The position numbers and the translations under genes were made by a program. The notes below the pieces were generated by a model. It was not told where the DNA came from and ran no database searches. It saw only the letters and a list, made by a program, of their open reading frames with translations. A stretch of DNA of 21,431 nucleotides from a virus (Duplodnaviria; Heunggongvirae; Uroviricota; Caudoviricetes): the IMG/VR virus record IMGVR_UViG_2563366923_000001, positions 1-21,431 of that record, one strand, 5' to 3'. Positions within the stretch are counted from its first letter, which is position 1. Each line of letters opens with the position of its first letter. Below are positions 1,391 through 13,060 of the stretch, one piece after another.

Positions 1391-1446
1391 AAATTCTTAG
1401 AAACCGATCACATACAGCTGCATTTATTAAGGTTATCATCCGTTTC
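1391..1446 (+). promoter_or_regulatory. cyaR promoter region with CRP-like site (TTAGA-N6-TCACA centred about -42) and TATCAT -10 about 7-12 nt upstream of the sRNA 5' end
   Basis: TCACA at 1408-1412 with an imperfect left half-site 1397-1401; -10-like TTATCAT at 1432-1438; CyaR is known to be CRP-activated. Confidence 0.45.
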
Positions 1447-1533
1447 GCTGAAAAACATAACCCATAAAATGCTAGCTGTACCAGGAACCACCTCCTTAGC
1501 CTGTGTAATCTCCCTTACACGGGCTTATTTTTT
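1447..1533 (+). ncRNA. cyaR: CyaR (RyeE) Hfq-dependent small RNA
   Basis: Sequence GCTGAAAAACATAACCCATAAAATGCTAGCTGTACCAGGAACCACCTCCTTAGCCTGTGTAATCTCCCTTACACGGGCTTATTTTTT recognised as CyaR; 3' stem-loop (CCTGTGTAA/TTACACGGG) plus U-tract; lies between yegQ and the P2 remnant as in E. coli. Confidence 0.7.
1507..1533. repeat. P2 att core copy (attR, ogr-proximal): AATCTCCCTTACACGGGCTTATTTTTT
   Basis: 27-bp sequence is the reverse complement of the P2 core AAAAAATAAGCCCGTGTAAGGGAGATT as I recall it; an identical copy lies at 20928-20954. Confidence 0.8.
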
Positions 1534-1934: not shown

Positions 1935-3098
1935 TCACTCATCATCTTCTGTTTCGTACTCCACATCAGAAAGCCTGACCTCAAGCTCTAAAGACGTCGT
2001 GAAGCCGCTATTATTCAGAAAATGTGTCACCTTAGTGATTGTCCAGTCCTGCTCGTCTATGACGCGCTTAAAGCCTGACACTTTAACCGGTGTTTCCGTG
2101 TAAATATCTGCCCGACCGGTAGCCAGGCTGATGGAGAACTCCGCCACACCCCGTTGCAGTTTATCCCACTTCGCCTGAGCGGCGCGCATGGCCTGCGCTT
2201 TCGTGGCATATACCGTAGTCAGGGCAAAAACGTTGTCAGCCTCACCGGCCATGTATTCACCTTCGCGCGCTTCCGGTACTTTTGGCGCTTTCTTCTGCGT
2301 GACCGGTTTCGCTTTCGGGTGCTCCAGTGCGCGCAGGTGTTTTTCTTTCTTTTTGCGTTTCAGTTTTACCTTCTGCTTTTGCGGCTTCGGGTCTTTGGTG
2401 TGTAACCACTTTGCCGTTACGCCGGTGTAAGCTCCACGGTCAGCAATCGCAAAATGATGACGGTCGCCGTCGCTGCGGGTGATGGTAATCTGCGGGATTT
2501 TTTTACCGCTGGCCGTCACCCCCTGCCCCGCTTTGAGAAACAACAGTTTTCCCATTTTTACCGACACCTCACCGCCGTTGCGTTCTGCAAGACGGGTCAG
2601 GAATTTCGCATCAGACTCCTGCGACTGGTCGATGTGCGGGATTTTAATTCCGGCCAGTGACGGAGCGACACTGGCTTCCAGCCTGTTACGGGAGGCTATC
2701 GCTTCAACAATCGCACCGAGTGTGGTGTCATGCCAGGAGCCTTCCCGGCGGGAATTGAGCGTCCCGCGAAAATCTGCACTCCGGGCGCGGATGGTGACCA
2801 CATCCGGCGCGCCCCGGTGTTCAACCTCATCAACGGTGAATTTCCCTTTGCATACCAGGGCAAAACCTTTCCAGCCGATATACACCGTCAGGACAGCGCC
2901 ACGAACCGGTAGCCCGACCTGCCCGTCGGCATCGTTCAGTTCAATATCAAGCTGGTCAGCCTCAAAGCCCCGGTTATCCGTCAGGGTCATGCTCATCAGA
3001 CGGTCGCTGATATTGCCGGTAATATCCCTGCTGTCGAGCATCAGCATGTAATCCGGCGTCAGCGTACTGCCTGCATCAAATGTCAGTGCATCCAGCAT
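1935..3098 (-). CDS. D: P2 gpD-like tail protein (387 aa)
   Basis: 387-aa ORF, same length as P2 gpD and in the conserved position between U and ogr; start ATG overlaps the U stop (TAATG). Confidence 0.88.
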   Translation of the reverse strand: MLDALTFDAGSTLTPDYMLMLDSRDITGNISDRLMSMTLTDNRGFEADQLDIELNDADGQVGLPVRGAVLTVYIGWKGFALVCKGKFTVDEVEHRGAPDVVTIRARSADFRGTLNSRREGSWHDTTLGAIVEAIASRNRLEASVAPSLAGIKIPHIDQSQESDAKFLTRLAERNGGEVSVKMGKLLFLKAGQGVTASGKKIPQITITRSDGDRHHFAIADRGAYTGVTAKWLHTKDPKPQKQKVKLKRKKKEKHLRALEHPKAKPVTQKKAPKVPEAREGEYMAGEADNVFALTTVYATKAQAMRAAQAKWDKLQRGVAEFSISLATGRADIYTETPVKVSGFKRVIDEQDWTITKVTHFLNNSGFTTSLELEVRLSDVEYETEDDE

Positions 3099-3577
3099 TA
3101 TCCCGCCCCCGTCATCCCCGTGAATCTGGTCGCCATACTGCCAGCTTTACCGATGAGCGATTCCGCCTGTTTACCGATATCGCCATAAAGCGCGGCCAGT
3201 GATTCATCAACGCGGGTGAGCGACAGCGTAAAATCAATTTTCCGGGGTGTGCCGTCTGCAAAGAAAATACTCCCTGTTTCACTTACCCTGCTGATGACAT
3301 ACATGCCGTAAATCATGCCGGTGCCATCCAGCAACGGCCACGCCCGGCCTTCATCTGCCATCAGCCTGAGCGTGGTCATCGTCAGCTTTCCGCCGGTCAG
3401 TTCGGGATAAAGCACACCGGCAAGCGTCATGTTTTCCTCACCCACACCGAGAAACTGGTAGGCCTCCCGTTTACCGATACGGGAATTTGACGGCCAGCGA
3501 TAATCTGATTCACGCTGCATGGTCTGGTGTGGCAGCGTCTGGCGCATAAAAACAAACATACCTAACGCGAGCATCAT
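3098..3577 (-). CDS. U: P2 gpU-like tail protein (159 aa)
   Basis: 159-aa ORF matching P2 gpU in length and position upstream of D. Confidence 0.82.
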   Translation of the reverse strand: MMLALGMFVFMRQTLPHQTMQRESDYRWPSNSRIGKREAYQFLGVGEENMTLAGVLYPELTGGKLTMTTLRLMADEGRAWPLLDGTGMIYGMYVISRVSETGSIFFADGTPRKIDFTLSLTRVDESLAALYGDIGKQAESLIGKAGSMATRFTGMTGAG

Positions 3578-3806
3578 TTTTCGTCACCTCCTTAACCGAA
3601 TCCGGGAAGCCACCGAGCGACCACTCCATTGACAGCGCATCGTCATCAAGGCCGAGGTCTACCGGTGCGCTGCCGTTCATCCCCGCACCGCGATAGTTTT
3701 CGAGCTTACGGGTCAGTTTTGGTAGCGTGACGGACTTCGCGACGCCCTGATAGCTGTAGCCGTTCAGAAAGACGTTCATTAACTTGAGTTTGCGCGGCAT
3801 TGCCAT
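3510..3806 (-). pseudogene. FII: Truncated tail tube gene FII (N-terminal about 72 codons fused to out-of-frame sequence upstream of U)
   Basis: ORF begins MAMPRKLKLMNVFLNGYSYQG... (tail tube N-terminus) but is only 98 aa against 172 aa in P2; its last about 27 codons read through the U start region in another frame; genes E, E' and T that lie between FII and U in P2 are absent. Confidence 0.7.
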
Positions 3807-3818
3807 CGGTCAGGCTCC

Positions 3819-5009
3819 TTAATTGCTGTTAACCGAGGTGACCAGATTTGCCAGGTATTTATCGGTAATACGCTGGCGCAGGGTCAGGTTTTCGAGAGGA
3901 GGCACCGGGGTATAGTCGTAGTCGATATACAGTTTTCCGGCCTTGAGGGTTTCCGCATCGTTGGATTCTTCGCTGAACCAGCAGGTCGCATCCACGATAT
4001 AGCCGTTTGTTTTCAGTTCACGGAATTTGGCATTGATGCCGTCAACGATGTCGCGAATCAGCGTTGCGGTGATGGGCTTGTCCACCGCCCACATGTGCGC
4101 CTCAGCCATCGTGTCGGCCAGCACCTGCGCGGTGCGGGTGTAGTTTTCAAAGAGGAACAGCGGGTCATCAGAGCAGGTACGGTTACCCCAGAAGCGGAAA
4201 CCGTCGCGGCGAATCAGCGTTGTGACGCCAGACTCGTTCAACAGGTCAGCATCGGTGCCGGACTCCTGCAAATCCCAGAATACAGATGCGCTGATGCCGG
4301 TAACACCGTTTACCCCGACGTTGGACAGCGTTTTATGCCAGCCCTGCTCCTGGTCGATTTTAGCGCGCAGACCCAGCGCACGGGCGGTGGCATACGCGGT
4401 GGCGGTGGTACTGGTGACCGTATCCCATGCGAGGAAATCCGGCCAGATGACCATCAGCTCACGCTGGCTGAAATTCTGGCGGTAGGCTTTCACCTCGGAA
4501 ATGGTCTTACAGCCCCATGCGCTGATATATCCGAAAGCGCGCAGCTTCTGACAGACGGATGCTAGTGCAACAGCCACCTCTTTGGTATCCAGTCCCGGCA
4601 CACCGAGAATACGCGGTTTAACACCGGTTACCGACTCCGCCGCCAGCAGGGCTTTCAGTCCGGTGTACTGACCGTTTTCGTCGGTGGTGCCGATGATATT
4701 GGAAACGGTCTGCGCAAGTTTCGTTTCCTCGTCGTCGCCGGTGCCGTCTTCCACACGCACGACAACGGTGACCGGTTTTGACTGGTCGGCGATGGCCTGC
4801 AACGATGCCGCCAGCGTGCCTTTTTTACCGGCCTTTGCAATTGCGCTCTGCACATTGGTAATCAACACCGGTTTATTGAGGGGGAAGGTTTCCGCATCCG
4901 CATCGCTGGCCGTGCAGACCATGCCGACAATGGCAGTGGATACGGTGGAAATGACGCGGGTGCCGTCGTTAATCTCCAGCACCTGCACGCCATGATGATA
5001 GTCACTCAT
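3819..5009 (-). CDS. FI: P2 gpFI-like tail sheath protein (396 aa)
   Basis: Track ORF 3819..5162 has an internal start MSDYHHGVQVLEINDG... at 5009-5007, preceded by a GGAG RBS; the 396 aa from that Met matches the P2 FI length. Confidence 0.85.
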   Translation of the reverse strand: MSDYHHGVQVLEINDGTRVISTVSTAIVGMVCTASDADAETFPLNKPVLITNVQSAIAKAGKKGTLAASLQAIADQSKPVTVVVRVEDGTGDDEETKLAQTVSNIIGTTDENGQYTGLKALLAAESVTGVKPRILGVPGLDTKEVAVALASVCQKLRAFGYISAWGCKTISEVKAYRQNFSQRELMVIWPDFLAWDTVTSTTATAYATARALGLRAKIDQEQGWHKTLSNVGVNGVTGISASVFWDLQESGTDADLLNESGVTTLIRRDGFRFWGNRTCSDDPLFLFENYTRTAQVLADTMAEAHMWAVDKPITATLIRDIVDGINAKFRELKTNGYIVDATCWFSEESNDAETLKAGKLYIDYDYTPVPPLENLTLRQRITDKYLANLVTSVNSN

Positions 5010-5100
5010 CCGTTTAACTCCGTGGTTAATGGGTGCAACTATTTTCTGTTGTGCAGAGCATGAGACGCTATTTGACCTGGCTGGCCAGTGGATGAAACAA

Positions 5101-5133
5101 CAGATAAAGAAAAGGCGGGCAATCAGCCCGCCA
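5101..5133 (-). terminator. Putative rho-independent terminator on the minus strand (GGCGGGC-TGATT-GCCCGCC followed by TTTTCTTTATCTG)
   Basis: 7-bp GC-rich inverted repeat at 5113-5119/5125-5131 with a T-rich tract downstream on the minus strand; sits between the Z/fun-position cargo and the FI promoter region. Confidence 0.45.
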
Positions 5134-5378
5134 GCCTTGATTTGCACTCTCTCAATTTCCAACTGACAAAATACGTAGCCAAAACGCTATCAAATCTGAC
5201 AGCCTGCTTTGAGCGAGAAACAGACATGGATGGCATACAGTGAAAGTAGCCGCACAATGAGCATCACTGCAATTCTGAATTCAAGCTCTAATACTATTGA
5301 GACCGTATCATACAGTCACTCGCAAAAATTACTTTACCTGAGTGAAAAAATTGATTCCAAGCAAAATGAAAACTTGTA

Positions 5379-5406
5379 ATTCATTATTACATGCATAATA
5401 ATGAAT
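5379..5406. promoter_or_regulatory. AT-rich 11-bp perfect inverted repeat (ATTCATTATTA-CATGCA-TAATAATGAAT) about 100 bp upstream of the OLD-like gene; candidate operator
   Basis: Read directly from the sequence; a TATATAAA -10-like element follows at 5420-5427. Confidence 0.3.
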
Positions 5407-5508
5407 AAAAACTTGAGCTATATAAACCAAAGTTGTTCCGAATAGTCCGTTGAGACATCACTCGAATTATAGGAATACAAGGTTTTATTTTTATAAGGAA
5501 TCGCTCCC

Positions 5509-7773
5509 ATGGGTTTGCAAAGCATAAGAATAAAAAACTTACTATCATTTAATGATGTAATAATAAATTCCCTAGAGGATGTAAATTGCATTGTAGGGAT
5601 GAATAATGTTGGCAAATCCAATCTTATGAAAATATTGAAATATTTTTACGACAAACTTGACGACATAAAAGTAATACCTCCTGATTTTCATTCTAGTTAT
5701 ACTCCTTCAGGGTCAATAACATTGACTTATGATGTAACAAGAATAAAGAGAATTGTAATGAACCCTAATAACAATGGTCGCTTTCACAAGCATATTTATA
5801 ACACTTTATTTAAGCCACAATCATTCATCCGAAAGCCGCAGAAATTCTGTCTTCCTTTCATATCTCCTTTGGGTTTCCAAAGAAAAAGCACTTATAGCAT
5901 TACACTCACAATTTCTAAAGATGACTCCGTAACTTGGTCAATTAGCACACCAAATGCCCGGCATCTAATTAAAACTCTATTTCCTTTTTTCCATATTGAA
6001 ACCAGACACATTGACTTATACGACTGGAATAGCATATGGAAAATGCTCAGCAGTATAAATTCCTTTAATTTCTCTGAAATAAAAAAAGAAGAACTCCTTG
6101 AGTTTTTGAATGAGAAAATATCAACTAAGCGGGGTAGTTACAAGAAGTATATAGAAAGAGTTGAAAATGTAATCCATACTAAACCTTACACCTATAAAGA
6201 TAAAGTCGTTAATTATCTAAAAATAGTTTTAGATGGCGATATTTTCATAAATAAAGGTGAAGAACTACATGTTCAGTCGGATGGCACGAACTCTCACAAA
6301 TATCTTGAAATTATACTTAGCCTATTAATTTCATTAACAAGAACAGAATTTATCAATCCAATTATATATATTGATGAACCTGAAATTGGGCTACATCCAA
6401 AACTTAGCGAGAACTTTATTGAGAACATAAGCCTGACATATAAAAAGTATGATAAAACCCATGAGGAAATTGAGCCTGGAAAATATTCAACACCATATCC
6501 AACTCTTATATTTAGCACTCATTCTCCGAGTTTACTAAAACTCACGCTAAAATCTTTCTTACATAAACAGCAGGTTTTGCATTTTTCAAAAGAACGTGAC
6601 AACTCGACCAAAATTTCAAAATTAAACTCTAAATATAATGACATTAGATTTATAAATATGCTTAGCGATAATGAGGCCCGTCTATTCTTTAGTGAATACA
6701 TTCTATTTGTAGAGGGCGCCACAGAAGTTGAATTGTTTAGAAATTATAATCTGCAAAAGCTGTTTCCAGTACTTAAAAGGTTAGATGTGTATGATTGCGA
6801 TGAAGTAATGTTGAAAAATATAAACCCCAGCTACTCAAATGCAGCCATCCCATTTCTAGTAGTAAAGGATATTGATCAGATTGCCGTTGTTGACTTCGAA
6901 CATGAACAATTTAAATTTAATTCGAAAGGGAAATCAATTATTAATAAAATCATTAAGAGAGATAAACTACACTATTTTTCGACATACCAAAAACCTTTTC
7001 TTAACGCAGCAAAATTTCTTTTAAGCCAAGATGAAAGGAAAGTAACATTCAGTGAAAATGGCCTAAAATTCAGACACTTCAGTATAGGCAGAGTTATAAG
7101 CGCAGTTAATTTTTTATCCTCTAAAGATAATGTTTATTATACTTCTACAACGATAGAAGGCTCATTGATCAATGAATTCTCTTTAGAGACATTCTCTTTA
7201 TGGATCATTGACATAGTAATGAGAAGCTTTAATGTAAATAATAAAAACCCTGTAAAAATGATTAATGCTCTGCTGCAAAAATACGATATTAAAACCCAAT
7301 CAAAACAACTTTTTCCCAAAATACTTTCAAAATGTGAAACAAATCATGACCTACCATTGCGACACATGAGATTATTGAAAATCATTAAAATTAGATATGC
7401 TAAAGAAATAATTGATGAGTTTAAAAAAACCATCCCCGACGTAAAAGACCAAGTTGCTATCTTGCGCCTTATTTTTAGTGGCAAAACAGAAACTCTTGTA
7501 AGTATAGAAATGCATTATAAAATTGATCAAAAACCGATACGGCAAGATATATTGGATTATATCAAAGCATTAAAGTCAGAAAATTTCTCTTTTATGAGTT
7601 CTTACATAGGAAAGACTTCTGGATGGGTTACAAGCTTCATTGATTTTAGCCTTAATCATTATTCAGCCCTAGATAAAGAAAATGTCGAAAAAAAATTCCG
7701 CTTGGCTTTTCCTGAAATTTCGCATATCATCGATCATGCTTCTTCTTCGATAGAAGCTGGAGGGCTCAAATGA
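5509..7773 (+). CDS. OLD-family nuclease-like protein: N-terminal ABC-type ATPase, central TOPRIM domain, about 300-aa unassigned C-terminal extension (754 aa)
   Basis: Walker A GMNNVGKSN near the N-terminus; Walker B/D-loop IIYIDEPEIGLHP; H-loop FSTHSP; TOPRIM glutamate motif LFVEGATEVELF and DxD-like VVKDIDQIA; AAGGAA RBS before the ATG; strongly AT-rich relative to the prophage backbone. Confidence 0.75.
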   Translation: MGLQSIRIKNLLSFNDVIINSLEDVNCIVGMNNVGKSNLMKILKYFYDKLDDIKVIPPDFHSSYTPSGSITLTYDVTRIKRIVMNPNNNGRFHKHIYNTLFKPQSFIRKPQKFCLPFISPLGFQRKSTYSITLTISKDDSVTWSISTPNARHLIKTLFPFFHIETRHIDLYDWNSIWKMLSSINSFNFSEIKKEELLEFLNEKISTKRGSYKKYIERVENVIHTKPYTYKDKVVNYLKIVLDGDIFINKGEELHVQSDGTNSHKYLEIILSLLISLTRTEFINPIIYIDEPEIGLHPKLSENFIENISLTYKKYDKTHEEIEPGKYSTPYPTLIFSTHSPSLLKLTLKSFLHKQQVLHFSKERDNSTKISKLNSKYNDIRFINMLSDNEARLFFSEYILFVEGATEVELFRNYNLQKLFPVLKRLDVYDCDEVMLKNINPSYSNAAIPFLVVKDIDQIAVVDFEHEQFKFNSKGKSIINKIIKRDKLHYFSTYQKPFLNAAKFLLSQDERKVTFSENGLKFRHFSIGRVISAVNFLSSKDNVYYTSTTIEGSLINEFSLETFSLWIIDIVMRSFNVNNKNPVKMINALLQKYDIKTQSKQLFPKILSKCETNHDLPLRHMRLLKIIKIRYAKEIIDEFKKTIPDVKDQVAILRLIFSGKTETLVSIEMHYKIDQKPIRQDILDYIKALKSENFSFMSSYIGKTSGWVTSFIDFSLNHYSALDKENVEKKFRLAFPEISHIIDHASSSIEAGGLK

Positions 7774-7893
7774 GCTGACGCATGCCGTCACTTGCTCCAG
7801 CAAACACTAGCTCGGATTGTCTTGCGTCCGCTAAGCCGCTTTAAGCCTCACGGGGTGTAAAGATGTTATTGGTATCGAAGAGGAAGCTTTTAC

Positions 7894-8991
7894 ATGAAAC
7901 ATAAAATTAATAAAATTAACAATGATTTTTATAAAAATTTTTATCTAAGAGAAACATTCTCCGATGATATTATTATGACTCACGGAGTCCCTGAGATTTC
8001 CAATGACGATTATAAAAGCATTTCATTAAAGAATAGATTATGTTTCACTATAAGAAAAAGCTCCCCGCATAAAAAAATACAAGAAAGACTTATAAAAAAT
8101 TTCCTAGTAAAAGTTCCTCTTAGCTCACCTGCAATTGCCTATCGTAAAAAATTAAACTATTTGAATTTTCTAGAACCTCATATCCATGGTGAGAACTTTT
8201 GTCGAATTGACTTATGTAATTTTTTTCATAACATAAACTATAACTTTGCAAGGGAGTGTTTCAAATCCTACTTTGAAGATGAATATCTGGTAAATAAAAA
8301 AATCAAAGTTATTGATGCATTTTTAAATAGTTTATCTATTGAGATTGTAGTCAACAATAAAAAGAAAAAAATATTTCCAATGGGATTCGCCACATCACCT
8401 TTCATATCCAATATAATTTTCAGAAAGTTAGATATTTTAATTAAAAGTTTGTGTGACAAAAGAAGCATCATTTACACTCGTTATGCTGATGATATGCTTT
8501 TTTCGAGCTCCGGGAAAGACAAACTTCTTGGAAGTGAACATTTTGACAACGAGATATCAACTATTGTCAATACGGCAGGACTGTCCCTCAACAAACATAA
8601 AAAAATATTTAAGAAAGGCATAATCTCACTAAACGGCTATGTAATAGAAAATAAAAATGGAGGGGGAGAGAGAGGGAGTATAAGAATATCTAATGGAAAA
8701 ATGTATTTAATACGGAAAGCACTAGATAAATTTAAAAAGGGATATTCTAAAGAGCATATTTGCAAAAAAGTATTTTCTGTTAAATCACCAACTGTCAAGT
8801 ATAATAACAATGCAGATCAGTTTGTAACGGATTTTTATAATTCACAATTCTCTAATAAGTTAGCTGGTTATCGTTCATATTTAATATCATTAGTAAAATT
8901 TAATGATAAATTCAGATGTTTTCACGAAAACGAAATCACCAAATACTCAGTGATTATTGATGAAATTTCTAATGCACTGCTAAAACCCTAG
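7894..8991 (+). CDS. Reverse transcriptase, retron/Abi-like (365 aa)
   Basis: RT motifs in order: RIDLCNFFHNI (motif 2 region), FPMGFATSPFISNIIF (motif 4, compare retron PQGxxxSPxLSN), YTRYADD (catalytic YxDD at 8482-8493), LSLNKHKK and ISLNGYVI (retron-like motif 6/7 region, but no canonical VTG); GAGGAAG RBS; AT-rich; no maturase or endonuclease domain. Confidence 0.8.
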   Translation: MKHKINKINNDFYKNFYLRETFSDDIIMTHGVPEISNDDYKSISLKNRLCFTIRKSSPHKKIQERLIKNFLVKVPLSSPAIAYRKKLNYLNFLEPHIHGENFCRIDLCNFFHNINYNFARECFKSYFEDEYLVNKKIKVIDAFLNSLSIEIVVNNKKKKIFPMGFATSPFISNIIFRKLDILIKSLCDKRSIIYTRYADDMLFSSSGKDKLLGSEHFDNEISTIVNTAGLSLNKHKKIFKKGIISLNGYVIENKNGGGERGSIRISNGKMYLIRKALDKFKKGYSKEHICKKVFSVKSPTVKYNNNADQFVTDFYNSQFSNKLAGYRSYLISLVKFNDKFRCFHENEITKYSVIIDEISNALLKP

Positions 8992-9413
8992 CCTTAGAAA
9001 GTTAATGTTTTGGCCCTAAAGCAAGGGCCTTAATAGTAAAAATAGTTACCAGCATAAGTATTCCTTCAACTAATCACACAAATTAACGTTAGCAACGTTC
9101 CCTTTTTACACCGTCTGAGCACTAAGCTGTCGGTCATTCTGGTCTACCATACTATTATACGTAACATCCAAGAGTGTTCCTGCAAACGGTCGTAGAAAAT
9201 GCGGGCTTCGCCATTTTCTGGCCGACGCCGGTCTCGTCGAGTTCTTCTGACTGTTCAAGTGCAAATGCGCCTGTAGGTATCCCTACAAAAGAAACCATCA
9301 ACTTTTAGATAGTATCTGGCACTCCAACTCCCGCTGTTGACTCGGAGCGGACTGTCAGATTAGGCTTTACTCTGTACCATAGATACGTTAGCTCACTCCA
9401 GAGATCATACAAC

Positions 9414-9941
9414 TTATTGCGGCATGTCCGGCCATTCAGGATTTGAAGGGTCCACACGACTGACCAGAACGCTGTAGCGTTCCCATGCATCCAGTCGACT
9501 GCGCTCCTCACCTGTTGCCATATTCAGCCTGACAGCGCGCTCCAGCGGCAAAATTACGGATTCAGCTTCGGAAAGCAAAGCTGCCTTATGTAATTCCGCT
9601 AGTTTCTGCTGTTCGTCTGCCGTATAAATCCGCTTAATCACGGCACCATCCTTAAACATCCATTTACCTGAGTCATCAGCACGCCGGTTGGCAGTAATAT
9701 CAGGAACCTCAACGACGCTAAAACCTTCAGGATTAAGCGTTGAAGCATCTCTGGTGATGGCGACAATAATATTATTTTCATCGTAAACAATCTTTATTGT
9801 GTCTGGCTGAAAATTACTTACTTCCTCATACCAGTTTTTTCCGTCTTCGGACCATAACCAGATAACATCAAAATTCTTTGTTAGCTGATATTGCTCTTTT
9901 GTTTTTGGATTACCTGACTTAATGTTCTTTAAATGCTGCAT
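9414..9941 (-). CDS. G: P2 gpG-like tail fibre assembly protein (175 aa)
   Basis: 175-aa ORF matching P2 G in length, immediately downstream of the tail-fibre gene remnant. Confidence 0.8.
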
Positions 9942-9944
9942 TAC

Positions 9945-11030
9945 TTACACCTGCGCAACGTTATACCATGTGCCATTGATGTATTTTTGTATCGGCCTGA
10001 AGATGGCCTCATCATCGCCATCTACTTCACCAATGATTCTTAATCCGGTAATCGTGTGTCCGGCTTTTTCATAACGACCACCTCGCGCCATCAATTGAAC
10101 AACTCGCGTACCCAGGCGAACATCTTTCACATAGCGGGAATCAAAATTCCCCCAGTTGCTGGGTTGCATCTGACCGTTAACAGCAAATATTACCGAGTTA
10201 TCTGTATTTCGCTGGCTATAGAAATGCCATCCGGACTCATCGCCTAACTCTGCAACCACTGGACGGTTGGAAGCACCCCATAAATTAAAGGTAATATTCT
10301 TCGTGGATGTGTTAGAGCTGGATAGCGAGAACTTTTTACTATCCCCTGCCTGAATATTTTTAAAAGCAATAGCCACTCCATTCTGAAAACGGAATACACG
10401 CTGACTGTTAGCATAAACATCAAGAATACCGTCTCCATTCTGTTTAAATCCGGTATCATTATCACCAAGGACAATAGAGCTACCACCTAGTGCATTCGTC
10501 GTACCAACTCCAAGACAGCCATTAATGACGGCATTAACAAGAATATTTAGTGCATCCCATTTCAGCGTCATCAGGTCTTTTGTTGTGGTACTCTGGCGGC
10601 TTCTCCATTTGAAATATTCATTGCCGTTATCCCCCGTTTCAAACCACATGTATGAATCAGCGTCACCATCGGCATCATTTTTAAATCCAATCTTCGCCCA
10701 GTCAGTATTTCGAATCCAGGCAAGGATTGAGTCGTTTTCAAAAGTAATCCCGCCGGACAAGGTATCGCCATTCTTTTGCACCGCGTTCCTGGCCCTGTTT
10801 ACCGTTTCCTGCAAACCGAGGTATTCGATAACGGCAGCAATGGTCGCTTTAGCCAGAATATCCCGCCCGACTTTTGTCAGGGTTGCCAAACTGGCAACAT
10901 CATTCCCCGTAAAATACGGAAAGCTGTCTGCCGCAGTAGCAAGCCCCGCCAGCGCCGTCAGAGTGGCATCTTTCGGTTGCTTACCCGCAAGCGCATTAGT
11001 CATGGAGGTAGCAAAATTCGGGTCTCGGCC
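9945..11030 (-). pseudogene. H: Tail fibre gene H remnant (C-terminal half, about 360 codons) lacking its N-terminal half
   Basis: Reading frame continues upstream of Met 11003 as ...DPNFATSMTNALAGKQPK..., which I recognise as an internal H region; upstream of about 11027 the frame decodes nonsense that overlaps J in another frame. P2 H is 669 aa. Confidence 0.72.
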
Positions 11031-11860
11031 AGCGGTGCAGTCAGTTCGACACGCTGCACGCCTTCCACATGCAAAGCGGCATAAATGGCAGACAGACGGA
11101 TGTCGCGCCCCAGCCGGTGCTGTGCCGTGATGTACGCTTCCAGTTTTTTCACGGCAGCAGCGCGTATGGGTTCGCTTTCGGGACCAGGGTAAAGGTAAAG
11201 CGTGGCGTTTATCTGGTATTCAACGATGGCGGCAGACTGCACGGTCACGCGGTCGGCCACCGGCCTGACGTCCTCGCCATTAAGGGCGTTACGCACCACC
11301 GCCAGCAGGTCTTCGGATGCGACACCGTTATTTTCACGTGACAGCACAGAGATGGTGACGCAGGCCGGAGACGGACTGGTTACAGAAATATCCGCGACAC
11401 GCCCGTCGGCACTGCGACCATGATACTGATAGGCCCCCACCGACCCGGCGACGCTTAAACCTTCAAACGCCTGCTGAATACGCAGACGATAATCCGTGTC
11501 AGATTCCATCACTGCCGGTGTCGGCGGGATGGTCGAATCATCTTCCAGGGTGATAATCAGGCGCGTGGTGTTGTAATTGGCACCAATCACATCAAGGTCA
11601 TTACCGGCAGCACAGGCCAGCATCACCGCCCGTGCGGCCTCATTCACACGCTGACGCCAGATAAGCTCACGATAAGCATTTTCCTCCAGCAGTTTGACGA
11701 GAGGCTCAGATTCCAGCGTCAGGGTACGGGCGACCGCCTCCTGCTGGTCTTCCGGGTAAAGGGAAATCAGTGTCGCCTTGCGTTCGGCAAGAATGGTTTC
11801 AAAGTCCAGCTCCTCAACCACATCCGGTGCGGGTAGCTGGTTCAGGTCGATAATCGGCAT
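11000..11860 (-). pseudogene. J: Baseplate gene J with altered/truncated C-terminus (286 aa against 302 in P2); gene I absent
   Basis: ORF starts MPIIDLNQLPAPDVVEELDF... (J N-terminus); the last about 8 codons (ETRILLPP) read into H-derived sequence; the stop overlaps the H-frame Met (ATGA). Confidence 0.62.
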
Positions 11861-11864
11861 GGTT

Positions 11865-12212
11865 TCAACTCACAGGAATGGTTAACGAAAGTGGCTGGCC
11901 GGTGTCGTTGTGCTGGCCGGTTAACGTGACCGTCATTCGCCCGTCAAAACTGCGCTCAGTGGTGACGGATGACAGGGTGACGCGGGGTTCCCATTTCAGC
12001 ACCGCCATGTAACAGGCGACCTTAATCTGCAACTCAAGCGCCGGGGTCTGCGGCTGGTCAATCATTGACGCCAGCAACGAGCCGTAATCACGACGCATCA
12101 CCCGCGAGCCGACCGGTGTGCGCAGGATATCGCCGATACTCTGGCTGATATGCTCAAGGTCAGTGACAGTCAGGCCATCACTGCGATTCATTCCGAGATA
12201 ACGCGCAGTCAT
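11865..12212 (-). CDS. W: P2 gpW-like baseplate protein (115 aa)
   Basis: 115-aa ORF, same length and position as P2 W (between V and J). Confidence 0.82.
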   Translation of the reverse strand: MTARYLGMNRSDGLTVTDLEHISQSIGDILRTPVGSRVMRRDYGSLLASMIDQPQTPALELQIKVACYMAVLKWEPRVTLSSVTTERSFDGRMTVTLTGQHNDTGQPLSLTIPVS

Positions 12213-12565
12213 AGAGGTCCCCCTGTTGTGCCGCCGCTGTCGCCGGGGTGTTTATGGGTATGAAGTACCTTACCGTTTGATGAGAGTTCACCGCCGGTGT
12301 GTTCAATGTTGCCGCGCATCGTCCCGCCCTTCTGCACTTCCAGCGTGCCGGTAATCAGCCTGTTGGTGCAGACCACCTCCGGTGTGTCCAGGGTGACGCG
12401 GGTTGATGCTTTCACCATGACCACCGGCACCGTGGCGGTAACAGAATCAGAAGCCGTCACGCTGGCCGTTTTAATTCCGCTTACCGTAAGTGCACTGGTT
12501 TCGGGTTCATACTCAATCATCGCTGCCGAGACCCGCATCATGTGGCGCTGTGCGGGACTCGTCAT
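12209..12565 (-). pseudogene. In-frame M'-V' fusion remnant: first about 16 codons of terminase small subunit gene M joined to the C-terminal about 100 codons of baseplate spike gene V
   Basis: ORF begins MTSPAQRHMMRVSAAM (recalled as the gpM N-terminus) then continues IEYEPETSALTVSGIKTASV... (V C-terminal region); 118 aa against 211 aa for V; sits directly after the N stop, where M starts in P2. Confidence 0.62.
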
Positions 12566-12568
12566 CGG

Positions 12569-13060
12569 TTACGCTCCCGGCTCTGCGGTCGCTTTAGCCG
12601 GTGTGGAGAAATCACCGACCTTAATTTTTTCCACCAGACAACCGGCGGCGTAGTCCTCCACCACGTAATCAATGTTCATTGACTCGTAGTTCTCCACGCG
12701 ATCGAGTTTCGGGTTTTCCTCAATCACGCGGCGATGGCTGTCATCCATGTAGTAGATGGACAGGTTTTCCAGCTTCGTGATGAGCATCGCATCAGCCGGG
12801 AAGTACGGGACGCGTACCGCTGGCAGGTTGCCGATGCGTTTCTGGCTGATGATGACGTCAGCGGCCAGCATTTCGCTGTTGTCCTGCTCCTTGTTGACGA
12901 TGGGAAAATACTTGTCCGCCAGTAGCTGACGTCCCACAATCACCACAAGGTCAGGGTCTTCCTGATACCACGGCTCAATCAGGTTGTTGGTCGCATCCAT
13001 CACCAGTGCATCAAGGCTGGCATAATCACCGCCCTTATCCGTTCTGGTCGGGTGAACTGT
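12569..13060 (-). pseudogene. N: Major capsid gene N remnant (C-terminal about 157 codons only)
   Basis: Frame reads ...KGGDYASLDALMMDATNNLIEPWYQEDPDLVVIVGRQ... to the stop at 12569; an upstream in-frame stop at 13061-13063 and no N-terminal about 200 codons; P2 N is 357 aa. Confidence 0.68.

What the first reader, a model, noticed from the sequence alone, without database searches (positions are those of the whole stretch)
7744..7893. Structured, GC-richer OLD-to-RT spacer with nested hairpins and flanking inverted repeat: candidate retron-like ncRNA
The 120-nt spacer is visibly GC-richer than both flanking AT-rich genes. It contains stem GCTGGAG (7756-7762) / CTCCAGC (7795-7801) enclosing two short hairpins (GCTCA-AA-TGAGC at 7762-7773; TGACG-CATGC-CGTCA at 7775-7789). 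A 9-bp inverted repeat TCTTCGATA (7744-7752) / TATCGAAGA (7873-7881) brackets the region like retron a1/a2 repeats. No long msd-type stem is present, so the assignment is weak; a 9-bp inverted repeat is expected by chance several times in 21 kb.
Basis: seen in the sequence. Interest (0 to 1): 0.6.

Follow-up and report, generated by a model that had tools for sequence, protein, structure and literature searches.

The report
Retron Eco8-family msr-msd non-coding RNA

Summary
Confirmed. Window 7738-7887 (+) is the msr-msd ncRNA of a type I-B2 (Eco8-family) retron. It lies between an OLD-family ATPase-TOPRIM effector (5509-7773) and a retron RT (7894-8991).

- **Inverted repeat:** it is 15 nt, not 9 (7738-7752 / 7873-7887). 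It is bordered by the canonical branching G (7753) and opposing G (7872).
- **msr fold:** a 7-bp stem encloses two hairpins, the same three-way junction as in the cryo-EM structures of Retron-Eco8.
- **Position:** the published Eco8 residue labels map exactly onto the OLD-RT spacer of an Eco8 locus (L083), so this is where the known ncRNA sits.
- **Covariance model:** a model built here hits the window only at this site (174 bits). It also hits just upstream of the RT in 25 other loci from Gammaproteobacteria and Campylobacterota.
- **Covariation:** 92% of cells pair, against about 45% when partners are slid. 38 of 45 pairs carry compensatory changes.
- **msd stems:** the missing long stem is normal for the family, because Eco8 msDNA has two short DNA stem-loops.
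- **Predicted products (by homology):** msr about 58 nt, msDNA about 70 nt.

The proteins are only 41-52% identical to Eco8. I rate it a divergent new member of a known family, of modest interest.

The parts
5509..7773 (+). Retron effector: OLD-family ABC-ATPase + TOPRIM nuclease (754 aa). It has Walker A GMNNVGKS at residue 30, TOPRIM EGATE at 402 and DID at 454. Its last 36 nt overlap the ncRNA.
   Evidence: NCBIfam NF038234 retron_eff_Eco8 654.8 bits against cutoff 250. PADLOC ATPase-Toprim_I-B 1.2e-210. PDB 23or_B Retron Eco8 OLD nuclease 2.6e-227, aligned 1-750. Motifs.
7702..7730 (+). Candidate internal sigma-70 promoter (TTGGCT-17-TATCAT). Its -10 ends 7 nt before the first base of IRa2, which would place the transcript start at about 7737-7738. 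Inferred, not shown.
   Evidence: Consensus scan. That scan was not enriched over shuffles (18 sites against 18.2 expected). A TATnnT hexamer lies at the same offset in 12 of the 26 related loci and within 2 nt of it in 2 more, but it sits in conserved C-terminal codons of OLD.
7738..7752 (+). IRa2 (a2), the 5' arm of the terminal inverted repeat, GCTTCTTCTTCGATA. It also encodes the conserved OLD C-terminal residues A-S-S-S-I.
   Evidence: I1. Compensatory changes at 11 of 16 pairs in a MAFFT-only alignment and at 11 of 15 pairs in the model-guided alignment.
7753..7753 (+). Predicted branching (priming) guanosine, equivalent to Eco8 rG18.
   Evidence: The G directly 3' of GATA is invariant in 16 of 16 aligned relatives (column G16). 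Position mapped onto published Eco8 rG18 in L083. rG18C abolishes Eco8 defence (bioRxiv 10.64898/2025.12.04.692459).
7753..7810 (+). msr RNA, about 58 nt by homology. It forms a three-way junction: closing stem 7756-7762 / 7795-7801 (Eco8 dsRa), hairpin RSLa 7763-7776, hairpin RSLb 7777-7789, then a single-stranded tail AAACACUAG. The OLD stop codon TGA (7771-7773) lies inside RSLa.
   Evidence: MFE -21.4 kcal/mol, z = -2.81, same topology as Eco8 (L083) and relatives. Helices 2-4 all show compensatory changes.
7802..7807 (+). AAACAC: predicted msr segment that stays paired with the msDNA 3' end (5'-GTGTTT-3'), and the predicted stop of reverse transcription at A7802. Equivalent to Eco8 rA73-rC78.
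   Evidence: Homology mapping to L083 and the published labels. The AAACACTAG block is conserved. The exact stop is an inference.
7802..7871 (-). msd: template for a predicted 70-nt msDNA, CAATAACATCTTTACACCCCGTGAGGCTTAAAGCGGCTTAGCGGACGCAAGACAATCCGAGCTAGTGTTT, with dC1 opposite G7871. The template hairpin 7839-7862 corresponds to DSLa and is invariant. The template hairpin 7808-7833 corresponds to DSLb and is variable.
   Evidence: DNA-level folding energy is not better than shuffles (z = +0.61), so the DNA hairpins rest on homology with Eco8.
7872..7872 (+). Opposing G, directly 5' of IRa1.
   Evidence: Invariant in the alignment (column G135). Eco8 description in PMC13402713.
7873..7887 (+). 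IRa1 (a1), the 3' arm, TATCGAAGAGGAAGC. It contains the RT Shine-Dalgarno GAGGA (7880-7884), 9 nt before the ATG.
7894..8991 (+). Retron reverse transcriptase (365 aa) with YADD at 197-200 and PMG at 162-164.
   Evidence: PADLOC RT_I-B 2.7e-106. Pfam RVT_1. PDB Retron Eco8 RT 6.5e-88. Motifs.

Best explanation
Window 7738-7887 (+) encodes the msr-msd non-coding RNA of a complete, apparently intact type I-B2 (Eco8-family) retron. The retron is carried by a P2-like prophage.

The mechanism below is taken from the solved Eco8 system and inferred here by homology.
1. The RNA folds so that IRa2 (7738-7752) pairs with IRa1 (7873-7887).
2. The RT (7894-8991) recognises the msr three-way junction.
3. 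The RT primes from the 2'-OH of G7753 and copies the msd template from G7871 back to about A7802.
4. RNase H removes the template. What remains is a branched RNA-DNA molecule: about 58 nt of msr joined to about 70 nt of msDNA, held together by the AAACAC:GTGTTT hybrid.
5. Four RT, four msDNA and four OLD subunits assemble into an autoinhibited complex. The invariant msDNA stem-loop (DSLa) ties neighbouring OLD subunits together.
6. [quoted passage not shown] This releases the TOPRIM nuclease, which degrades DNA and aborts the infection.

Shown here: homology, position, the conserved and covarying RNA structure, and intact catalytic motifs. Inferred: msDNA production, the exact ends, the trigger and the promoter.
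For: 1. **Flanking genes are Eco8-family retron parts.**
- NCBIfam equivalog retron_eff_Eco8: 654.8 bits against a cutoff of 250.
- PADLOC I-B models: 1e-210 and 3e-106.
- PDB Eco8 RT and OLD: 6.5e-88 and 2.6e-227.
- The motifs EGxxE and DxD define subtype I-B2 in PMC7736814. They are present as EGATE402 and DID454.

2. **The known ncRNA lies in exactly this position.**
- L083 encodes an RT that is 359/360 identical to the PDB Eco8 RT.
- In its OLD-RT spacer every published label fits: rG18, RSLa A28-U45, RSLb A46-U61, rA73-rC78, rG81, dC1-dT75, DSLa C11-G34, DSLb C38-G61, dA15, dT30, C20 and G26. The labels come from PMC13402713 and bioRxiv 10.64898/2025.12.04.692459.

3. **The window element aligns to it end to end.** IRa2, the branching G, the AAACACTAG block, the DSLa template, the opposing G and IRa1 are conserved.

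4. **The ncRNA is far better conserved than the proteins.** A 73-nt stretch (7835-7907) is 88% identical to 36 E. coli loci whose RT and OLD are only 43% and 52% identical.

5. **The msr folds the same way.** It adopts the three-way junction seen in Eco8.

6. **Covariance model R1.**
- It hits the window once, at 7738-7887 (+), with 173.7 bits.
- It hits directly upstream of the RT in 25 other loci, including 17 not used to build it.

7. **Covariation.**
- 92.4% of cells pair, against 40-48% when partners are slid.
- 38 of 45 pairs have changes on both sides. 0 of 500 shuffles reach the observed values.
- An alignment made without any structure already shows compensatory changes at 11 of 16 pairs of the terminal repeat.

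8. **The element is maintained.**
- The same 150 nt occur unchanged in three IMG/VR viral contigs.
- The whole locus is 99.7-99.9% identical in two complete E. coli genomes.
Against: - There is no experimental evidence for this particular locus: no transcript and no msDNA.
- Rfam 15 gives no match at either threshold. I read this as a missing model rather than a failed test.
- The predicted msDNA does not fold better than shuffled sequence (z = +0.61). Its two hairpins therefore rest on homology only. The Eco8 authors also report that the observed DSLa differs from the predicted fold.
- The alignment used for the strongest covariation counts was fitted to the model's structure, which inflates pairing.
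- IRa2 lies in coding sequence (the conserved ASSSI of OLD). Its invariance among close relatives is therefore not independent evidence.
- Eco8 RT F51, proposed to set the termination point, aligns with C50 here, with a phenylalanine one residue later. The predicted stop at A7802 is uncertain by a few nucleotides.
- The msr and msd are 6 and 5 nt shorter than in Eco8.
Confidence: 0.93

Rival explanations
1. The element is a genuine homologue of the Eco8 ncRNA, but this copy is an inactive relic in a decaying prophage. It no longer yields msDNA or defence.
For: The surrounding P2-like prophage is a shortened mosaic. The window maps to 35 kb of E. coli UPEC85 in 8 pieces with 88% coverage. The tape-measure, E and tube genes are missing between 3577 and 3819, and the major head protein is truncated.
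Against: - Both ORFs are full length and keep their catalytic motifs: Walker A, EGATE, DID, YADD and PMG.
- The ncRNA keeps every conserved block and all helices.
- The 150 nt are identical in three viral contigs, and the whole locus is 99.7-99.9% identical in two complete genomes.
- Relatives in Serratia, Pectobacterium, Proteus and Providencia differ by compensatory changes such as G-C to A-U in RSLa.
Confidence: 0.04
2. The structure is only a cis-regulatory mRNA element and is not reverse transcribed. For example, it could mask the RT ribosome-binding site, act as a processing or stability element, or act as an attenuator between OLD and RT.
For: IRa1 contains the RT Shine-Dalgarno GAGGA (7880-7884), so the terminal stem would occlude it. 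The element sits inside an operon.
Against: - The region matches point by point an RNA shown by cryo-EM to be reverse transcribed in Eco8 (plus the cited papers).
- The branching and opposing G are invariant.
- No terminator-like T-run follows any hairpin.
- A regulatory side-effect of the terminal stem on RT translation is compatible with the retron reading, so it is not an alternative to it.
Confidence: 0.02
3. The inverted repeat and hairpins are chance features of an intergenic spacer.
For: Inverted repeats of this size are not rare in the window. There are 9 of at least 13 nt within 250 nt. The whole-region fold is only z = -2.3.
Against: The position, the sequence blocks and the base pairs are conserved, with compensatory substitutions, across 26 loci from two phyla.
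Confidence: 0.01

Closest known systems
Retron-Eco8 (type I-B2; E. coli 200499). Cryo-EM structures 23or, 9lbq, 9p4j and others. See PMC13402713 and bioRxiv 10.64898/2025.12.04.692459.
   Same: - Gene order is OLD effector, then ncRNA, then RT. The ncRNA starts inside the 3' end of OLD (the ASSSI codons) and ends just before the RT start.
- The first 15 nt of IRa2 are identical, as are the GATA-G branching context, the G-TATC opposing context and the GAA linker.
- A 7-bp closing stem carries two RNA hairpins.
- The xAAACxCTAG termination block is shared.
- Both have two short msd stem-loops, with a conserved CTTTA...TAAAG stem (DSLa).
- OLD residues F92 and H95, which contact DSLa in Eco8, are conserved.
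   Different: - RT is about 41% identical and OLD about 50%.
- msr is predicted at 58 nt against 64, and msDNA at 70 nt against 75.
- The IR is 15 bp against 17.
- RSLa, RSLb and the whole DSLb region have different sequences. DSLb is 9/28 identical.
- The OLD FDYY loop is FSTY-like here, and RT F51 aligns to Cys.
- The trigger specificity has not been tested.
The common E. coli Eco8-family locus (for example strain 675SK2, locus L001), annotated by RefSeq as 'retron Eco8 family effector endonuclease' plus RT.
   Same: The architecture is the same. The DSLa template, the ssDa template and IRa1 (7835-7907) are 88% identical at the DNA level, and the DSLa template is 27/27 identical.
   Different: RT is 43% identical and OLD 52%. 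The msr junction stem is AGGGG/CCCCT instead of GCTGGAG/CTCCAGC, RSLa is reduced, and DSLb is unrelated. It sits in a different genomic context, among IS630 remnants.
Classical retron ncRNAs such as Ec86 (Retron-Eco1) and the type I-A retrons Ec78 and Ec83.
   Same: All have a1/a2 terminal inverted repeats, a branching G at the 3' edge of the 5' arm, msr hairpins bound by the RT, and an msd reverse transcribed from the 3' side. The RT fold is related (7v9u 4.9e-14, 9e8z 7.8e-12).
   Different: These have one long msd stem-loop rather than two short ones. Their effectors and gene order differ. There is no detectable sequence similarity in the ncRNA, and no Rfam hit.

Membership tests
Retron msr-msd ncRNA (general) | Lies next to, and on the same strand as, a retron-type reverse transcriptase | tested here: met
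   The element ends 6 nt before the ATG of an RT that matches PADLOC RT_I-B (2.7e-106) and the PDB Eco8 RT (6.5e-88).
Retron msr-msd ncRNA (general) | Terminal inverted repeats (a2/a1) that pair in the RNA | tested here: met
   15-nt arms at 7738-7752 and 7873-7887. Compensatory changes at 11 of 16 pairs in the MAFFT alignment and 11 of 15 in the CM alignment, with 97.9% of cells paired.
Retron msr-msd ncRNA (general) | Conserved branching G directly 3' of the 5' arm, and an opposing G directly 5' of the 3' arm | tested here: met
   G7753 and G7872. Both columns are invariant in 16 of 16 aligned relatives.
Retron msr-msd ncRNA (general) | Structured msr stem-loops conserved with the cognate RT | tested here: met
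   The three-way junction is predicted in the window, Eco8 and relatives. Helices 2-4 have changes on both sides at 16 of 16 pairs.
Retron msr-msd ncRNA (general) | Stem-loop(s) in the msd / msDNA | tested here: inconclusive
   The two template hairpins (7808-7833 and 7839-7862) appear in the RNA fold and show covariation (helices 5-7). As DNA, the 70-mer folds no better than shuffles (z = +0.61).
Retron msr-msd ncRNA (general) | Production of branched RNA-linked msDNA (2'-5' bond) | not testable with these tools
   Needs wet-lab detection. It has been shown only for the homologue Eco8 (PMC13402713; bioRxiv 10.64898/2025.12.04.692459).
Retron type I-B2 / Eco8 family | Effector with an N-terminal ABC-ATPase plus an OLD-type TOPRIM carrying motif IV EGxxE and motif V DxD (PMC7736814) | tested here: met
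   Walker A at 30, EGATE at 402, DID at 454. NCBIfam equivalog retron_eff_Eco8 scores 654.8 against a cutoff of 250. PADLOC ATPase-Toprim_I-B 1.2e-210.
Retron type I-B2 / Eco8 family | RT of the I-B clade with an intact active site | tested here: met
   The best PADLOC model is RT_I-B (353.5 bits; the next model is at 114.8). YADD at 197 and PMG at 162. No NCBIfam model specific to Eco8 RTs matched; the best match, St85, is below its cutoff.
Retron type I-B2 / Eco8 family | ncRNA homologous to the Eco8 ncRNA, located between effector and RT | tested here: met
   Aligned end to end with the Eco8 spacer (L083). A CM built from the family scores 173.7 bits in the window and 122.5 bits in L083. 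The window and L083 were both seed sequences. Independent support comes from 17 non-seed loci, with E-values from 2e-17 to 6e-5.
Retron type I-B2 / Eco8 family | Activation by phage SSB binding to the msDNA; abortive infection through DNA degradation | not testable with these tools
   Known for Eco8 only (PMC13402713). The msDNA region that differs most here is DSLb.
Rfam curated RNA families | Reaches the gathering score of a curated family | tested here: not met
   There is no match in 7600-8000 at gathering score or at E <= 10 apart from chance hits. I read this as the family being absent from Rfam 15, since the region matches the published Eco8 ncRNA.

The most novel reading that the evidence does not exclude
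This is a distinct sub-lineage of Eco8-type retrons, found in E. coli P2-like prophages and in Serratia, Pectobacterium, Proteus and Providencia.

- The assembly part of the msDNA (DSLa, ssDa) is frozen. The second stem-loop (DSLb, template 7811-7834) is the fastest-evolving segment, so it may act as a swappable sensor that sets which phage SSB, or other ssDNA-binding trigger, fires the nuclease.
- Expression may be self-contained. A promoter embedded in the last codons of OLD (7702-7730) would start the transcript at the first base of IRa2.
- The terminal stem hides the RT ribosome-binding site. Folding into the reverse-transcription substrate and translation of RT would then be mutually exclusive on any one transcript.
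Probability: 0.25. Interest if true: 0.4.

Novelty: new member of a known kind. Interest (0 to 1): 0.25.

Why it matters
The result shows that a retron template RNA can be recognised from raw sequence. It also supplies exact, testable coordinates for a divergent Eco8-family retron: branching G7753, a 70-nt msDNA from 7871 back to 7802, and 15-bp terminal repeats.

Two practical uses follow:
- Rfam 15 returned no match here, so standard annotation leaves the RNA unmarked. The RefSeq records for identical loci annotate only the two proteins.
- Retron ncRNAs are used as in-cell ssDNA donors for genome editing. The comparison here separates an invariant, assembly-critical part of the msd from a variable part that probably tolerates replacement.

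Biologically it adds little to what the 2025-2026 Eco8 structures already established.

Tried and rejected
- **Rfam search.** I searched the whole window at gathering scores and 7600-8000 at E <= 10. Only CyaR elsewhere in the window and chance hits (snoR27, THF-II) came back. This says nothing against a retron, because no Rfam retron model matched.
- **Thermodynamics alone.**
  - The whole element folds at z = -2.3.
  - The predicted msDNA as DNA folds at z = +0.61.
  - Neither is decisive, so I did not use them as the main evidence.
- **Chance expectation of the inverted repeat**. Similar repeats occur elsewhere in the window, so the repeat alone proves nothing.
- **Promoter and terminator scan**. 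Promoter-like sites are not enriched over shuffles, and no terminator lies in the spacer. I rejected the attenuator/terminator idea and kept the promoter at 7702-7730 only as an inference.
- **Published Eco8 ncRNA sequence.** No supplementary files are held for PMC13402713. I therefore mapped the published residue labels onto an Eco8 locus instead.
- **More distant RT relatives.** The model found nothing at E <= 1 near the RT relatives in Bacillota (L036-L082, 28-35% identity). Their ncRNA, if present, is too diverged for this model. I did not pursue it.
- **Minus strand.** The only minus-strand hit was a weak mirror hit in L004 (E = 0.004), caused by the palindromic ends. Nothing supports a minus-strand element.
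Full report
**1. The observation**

- The spacer and its edges are GC-rich: 0.47 for 7700-7899, against 0.25-0.33 in the flanking genes.
- The stem GCTGGAG 7756-7762 / CTCCAGC 7795-7801 is exact (I17).
- The two enclosed hairpins exist but are shifted 1-2 nt from the stated coordinates. GCTCA/TGAGC is really 7764-7768 / 7771-7775. The minimum-energy fold uses 7763-7767 / 7772-7776 with a 4-nt loop. TGACG/CGTCA lies at 7776-7780 / 7786-7790.
- The flanking repeat is 15 nt, not 9: 7738-7752 / 7873-7887. The only non-Watson-Crick position is a U.G wobble in RNA (I1).

Taken alone these features are not statistically remarkable. The window contains nine inverted repeats of at least 13 nt within 250 nt. 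The region folds only 2.3 sd better than shuffles.

**2. The surroundings**

- ORF 5509-7773 (+) is an ABC-ATPase/TOPRIM protein.
  - It passes the NCBIfam equivalog 'retron Eco8 family effector endonuclease' with 654.8 bits against a cutoff of 250.
  - It matches PADLOC ATPase-Toprim_I-B at 1e-210.
  - It aligns over its full length with the solved Retron-Eco8 OLD nuclease at 2.6e-227.
  - It carries the motifs EGxxE (EGATE402) and DxD (DID454), which define subtype I-B2 in Mestre et al. 2020 (PMC7736814).
- ORF 7894-8991 (+) is a reverse transcriptase with YADD and PMG. Its best matches are PADLOC RT_I-B (3e-106) and the solved Eco8 RT (6.5e-88).

The cassette is AT-rich, about 30% GC against about 50% around it. 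It sits in a P2-like prophage between the tail sheath gene and the tail-fibre assembly gene.

**3. Where the known Eco8 ncRNA lies**

I therefore fetched a locus, L083, whose RT is 359/360 identical to the PDB Eco8 RT.

In its OLD-RT spacer a 17-nt inverted repeat is followed by a G. Counting from 17 nt upstream of that G reproduces every residue label in the two structural papers: rG18, RSLa rA28-rU45, RSLb rA46-rU61, rA73-rC78, rG81, dC1-dT75, DSLa dC11-dG34, DSLb dC38-dG61, dA15, dT30, C20 and G26 (PMC13402713; bioRxiv 10.64898/2025.12.04.692459).

It starts inside the last codons of OLD and ends just before the RT start.

**4. Homology of the window element**

Aligned with Eco8 and seven relatives, the window shares these blocks:
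- IRa2 and the GATA-G branching context;
- the GAA linker;
- the AAACACTAG block;
- the CTTTAAG...GTGTAAAG hairpin template;
- the G-TATC opposing context and IRa1.

A 73-nt piece (7835-7907) is 88% identical to 36 E. coli Eco8-family loci whose RT and OLD are only 43% and 52% identical. That far exceeds the conservation of the proteins.

The msr part (7753-7810) folds into the same three-way junction as Eco8: a 3-nt linker, a 7-bp stem, two hairpins and a 9-nt tail (-21.4 kcal/mol, z = -2.8).

**5. Breadth and covariation**

I collected 80 loci encoding related RTs. A simple scan found a GATA-G...G-T(A/G)TC-bounded inverted repeat directly upstream of the RT in most gammaproteobacterial and campylobacterotal loci. 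The arms have different sequences but pair with each other, for example GCTTCAACCCGATA, GTTTCCGCTTCGATA and AACTTTAGTCTGATA.

- In a MAFFT alignment made without structural information, 11 of 16 pairs of the terminal stem show compensatory double changes. The branching and opposing G are invariant.
- A covariance model built from nine sequences hits the window once, at 7738-7887 on the + strand, with 173.7 bits. It hits just upstream of the RT in 25 further loci, 17 of which were not used to build it.
- On the model-guided alignment 92.4% of cells pair, against 40-48% when partners are slid. 38 of 45 pairs have changes on both sides, all seven helices covary, and 0 of 500 shuffles reach the observed values.

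Caveat: that alignment is fitted to the structure, and the sequences are related.

**6. Anatomy in window coordinates**

| Feature | Coordinates |
|---|---|
| IRa2 | 7738-7752 |
| Branching G | 7753 |
| msr | 7753-7810 |
| msr closing stem | 7756-7762 / 7795-7801 |
| RSLa | 7763-7776 |
| RSLb | 7777-7789 |
| OLD stop codon (inside RSLa) | 7771-7773 |
| Hybrid/stop block AAACAC | 7802-7807 |
| msd template | 7802-7871 |
| DSLb-equivalent hairpin | 7808-7833 |
| DSLa-equivalent hairpin | 7839-7862 |
| Opposing G | 7872 |
| IRa1 | 7873-7887 |
| RT Shine-Dalgarno GAGGA (inside IRa1) | 7880-7884 |
| RT ATG | 7894 |

By homology the msDNA is 70 nt (75 in Eco8) and the msr 58 nt (64 in Eco8).

The Eco8 authors stress that two short DNA stem-loops are unique to Eco8.

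**7. Mechanism**

This is inferred from Eco8. The RT binds the msr junction, primes from the 2'-OH of G7753 and copies 7871 to about 7802. The branched msDNA, the RT and the OLD protein form a 4:4:4 autoinhibited complex. Phage SSB binding to the msDNA stem-loops then unleashes the TOPRIM nuclease and aborts the infection (PMC13402713).

Consistent with this:
- OLD residues F92 and H95, which pack against DSLa in Eco8, are conserved here.
- The DSLa template is invariant across the sub-lineage and identical to that of the distant L001 locus. The DSLb region is the most variable segment, at 15-22 of 24 positions among close relatives and 9/28 against Eco8.

Not shown here: msDNA production, the exact 3' stop, the trigger and transcription. 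On the stop, Eco8 RT F51 aligns to Cys50, with a Phe one residue later.

A promoter-like site TTGGCT-17-TATCAT (7702-7730) ends 7 nt before IRa2. A TATnnT hexamer recurs at exactly that offset in 12 of 26 relatives and within 2 nt of it in 2 more. However, it lies in conserved codons, and promoter-like sites are not enriched in the region. It remains a hypothesis.

**8. Rivals**

- Chance is excluded.
- A terminator or attenuator is not supported, because no T-run follows any hairpin.
- A purely regulatory structure is unlikely given the point-by-point match to a reverse-transcribed RNA. Occlusion of the RT ribosome-binding site by the terminal stem may be a real side-effect.
- An inactive relic is possible, because the host prophage is a shortened mosaic. 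But both genes and all RNA elements are intact, and the same 150 nt are found unchanged in three viral contigs.

**9. Novelty and verdict**

The element belongs to a family that was defined computationally in 2020 and solved structurally in 2025-2026. The neighbouring effector gene is already named 'retron Eco8 family' by RefSeq. The RNA itself is not annotated in those records, and Rfam 15 does not detect it.

With proteins 41-52% identical to Eco8, and a different msr junction and DSLb, it is a new, divergent member of a known kind. Interest is modest (0.25). Its value lies in precise coordinates, a family alignment and model, and the separation of frozen from variable msd segments.

Noticed in passing
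window 1445-1530 (+): CyaR/RyeE sRNA (Rfam RF00112, 100.7 bits) lies between a conserved 453-aa ORF (1-1362) and the first P2-like prophage gene (gpD-like, 1935-3098, minus strand). From my own knowledge, the cyaR region is a known attachment site for P2-like phages. I did not map the att site here.
   Followed up: no
window 1935-13003: The P2-like prophage looks like a shortened mosaic.
- The window maps to 35.4 kb of E. coli UPEC85 in 8 pieces with 88% coverage.
- Between the gpU-like gene (3098-3577) and the sheath gene (3819-5009) the tape-measure, E/E' and tube genes of UPEC85 are absent. A 98-aa head-closure-like ORF (3510-3806) sits there instead.
- ORF 12569-13003 matches only the C-terminal 40% of the major head protein.
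- The retron cassette is nevertheless intact.
   Followed up: partly
window 5163-9413: The retron cassette (about 30% GC, against about 50% in the flanks) is inserted between the tail sheath gene and the tail-fibre assembly gene. UPEC85 has the same site. From my own knowledge this corresponds to the Z/fun moron site of phage P2. It is a different site from the old/tin hotspot between gpA and gpQ analysed in PMC9122126.
   Followed up: partly
window 5371-5414 and 5378-5392 / 5555-5569: AT-rich palindromes lie just upstream of, and across, the OLD start codon (5509). They are a 19-nt arm pair with a 6-nt gap and a 15-nt, 93% pair 162 nt apart. They overlap a promoter-like site at 5374-5402. This could be an operator or promoter of the retron operon, or just AT-rich chance.
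   Followed up: no
window 7873-7887: The RT Shine-Dalgarno (GAGGA 7880-7884) lies inside IRa1. Formation of the terminal a1/a2 stem would therefore sequester it. In relatives too, IRa1 ends at or overlaps the RT start.
   Followed up: partly
window 7738-7773: The ncRNA overlaps the last 12 codons of OLD. IRa2 encodes the conserved ASSSI motif, and the stop codon TGA lies inside msr hairpin RSLa. In other lineages (GCTTCAACCCGATAG) the invariant GATAG may itself supply the OLD stop codon TAG. I did not check the reading frame there.
   Followed up: no
loci L014, L018, L019, L025, L026, L028 (Citrobacter, Vibrio, Shewanella, Photobacterium and others): A sub-group has the same terminal repeat (GCTTCAACCCGATA) but a 199-202-nt element with about 50 extra nucleotides in the msr/msd. 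The model barely detects these; only L026 is hit, at E = 0.007.
   Followed up: no
loci L036-L082 (Bacillota): RT relatives at 28-35% identity show no hit to the ncRNA model at E <= 1. Mestre et al. list an 'IB2 (Proteobacteria/Firmicutes)' ncRNA family (PMC7736814), so a diverged version may be present there.
   Followed up: no
loci L087, L088, L089 (IMG/VR viral contigs): Three viral contigs carry a 150-nt element identical to window 7738-7887. This is consistent with spread of this retron by phages.
   Followed up: partly
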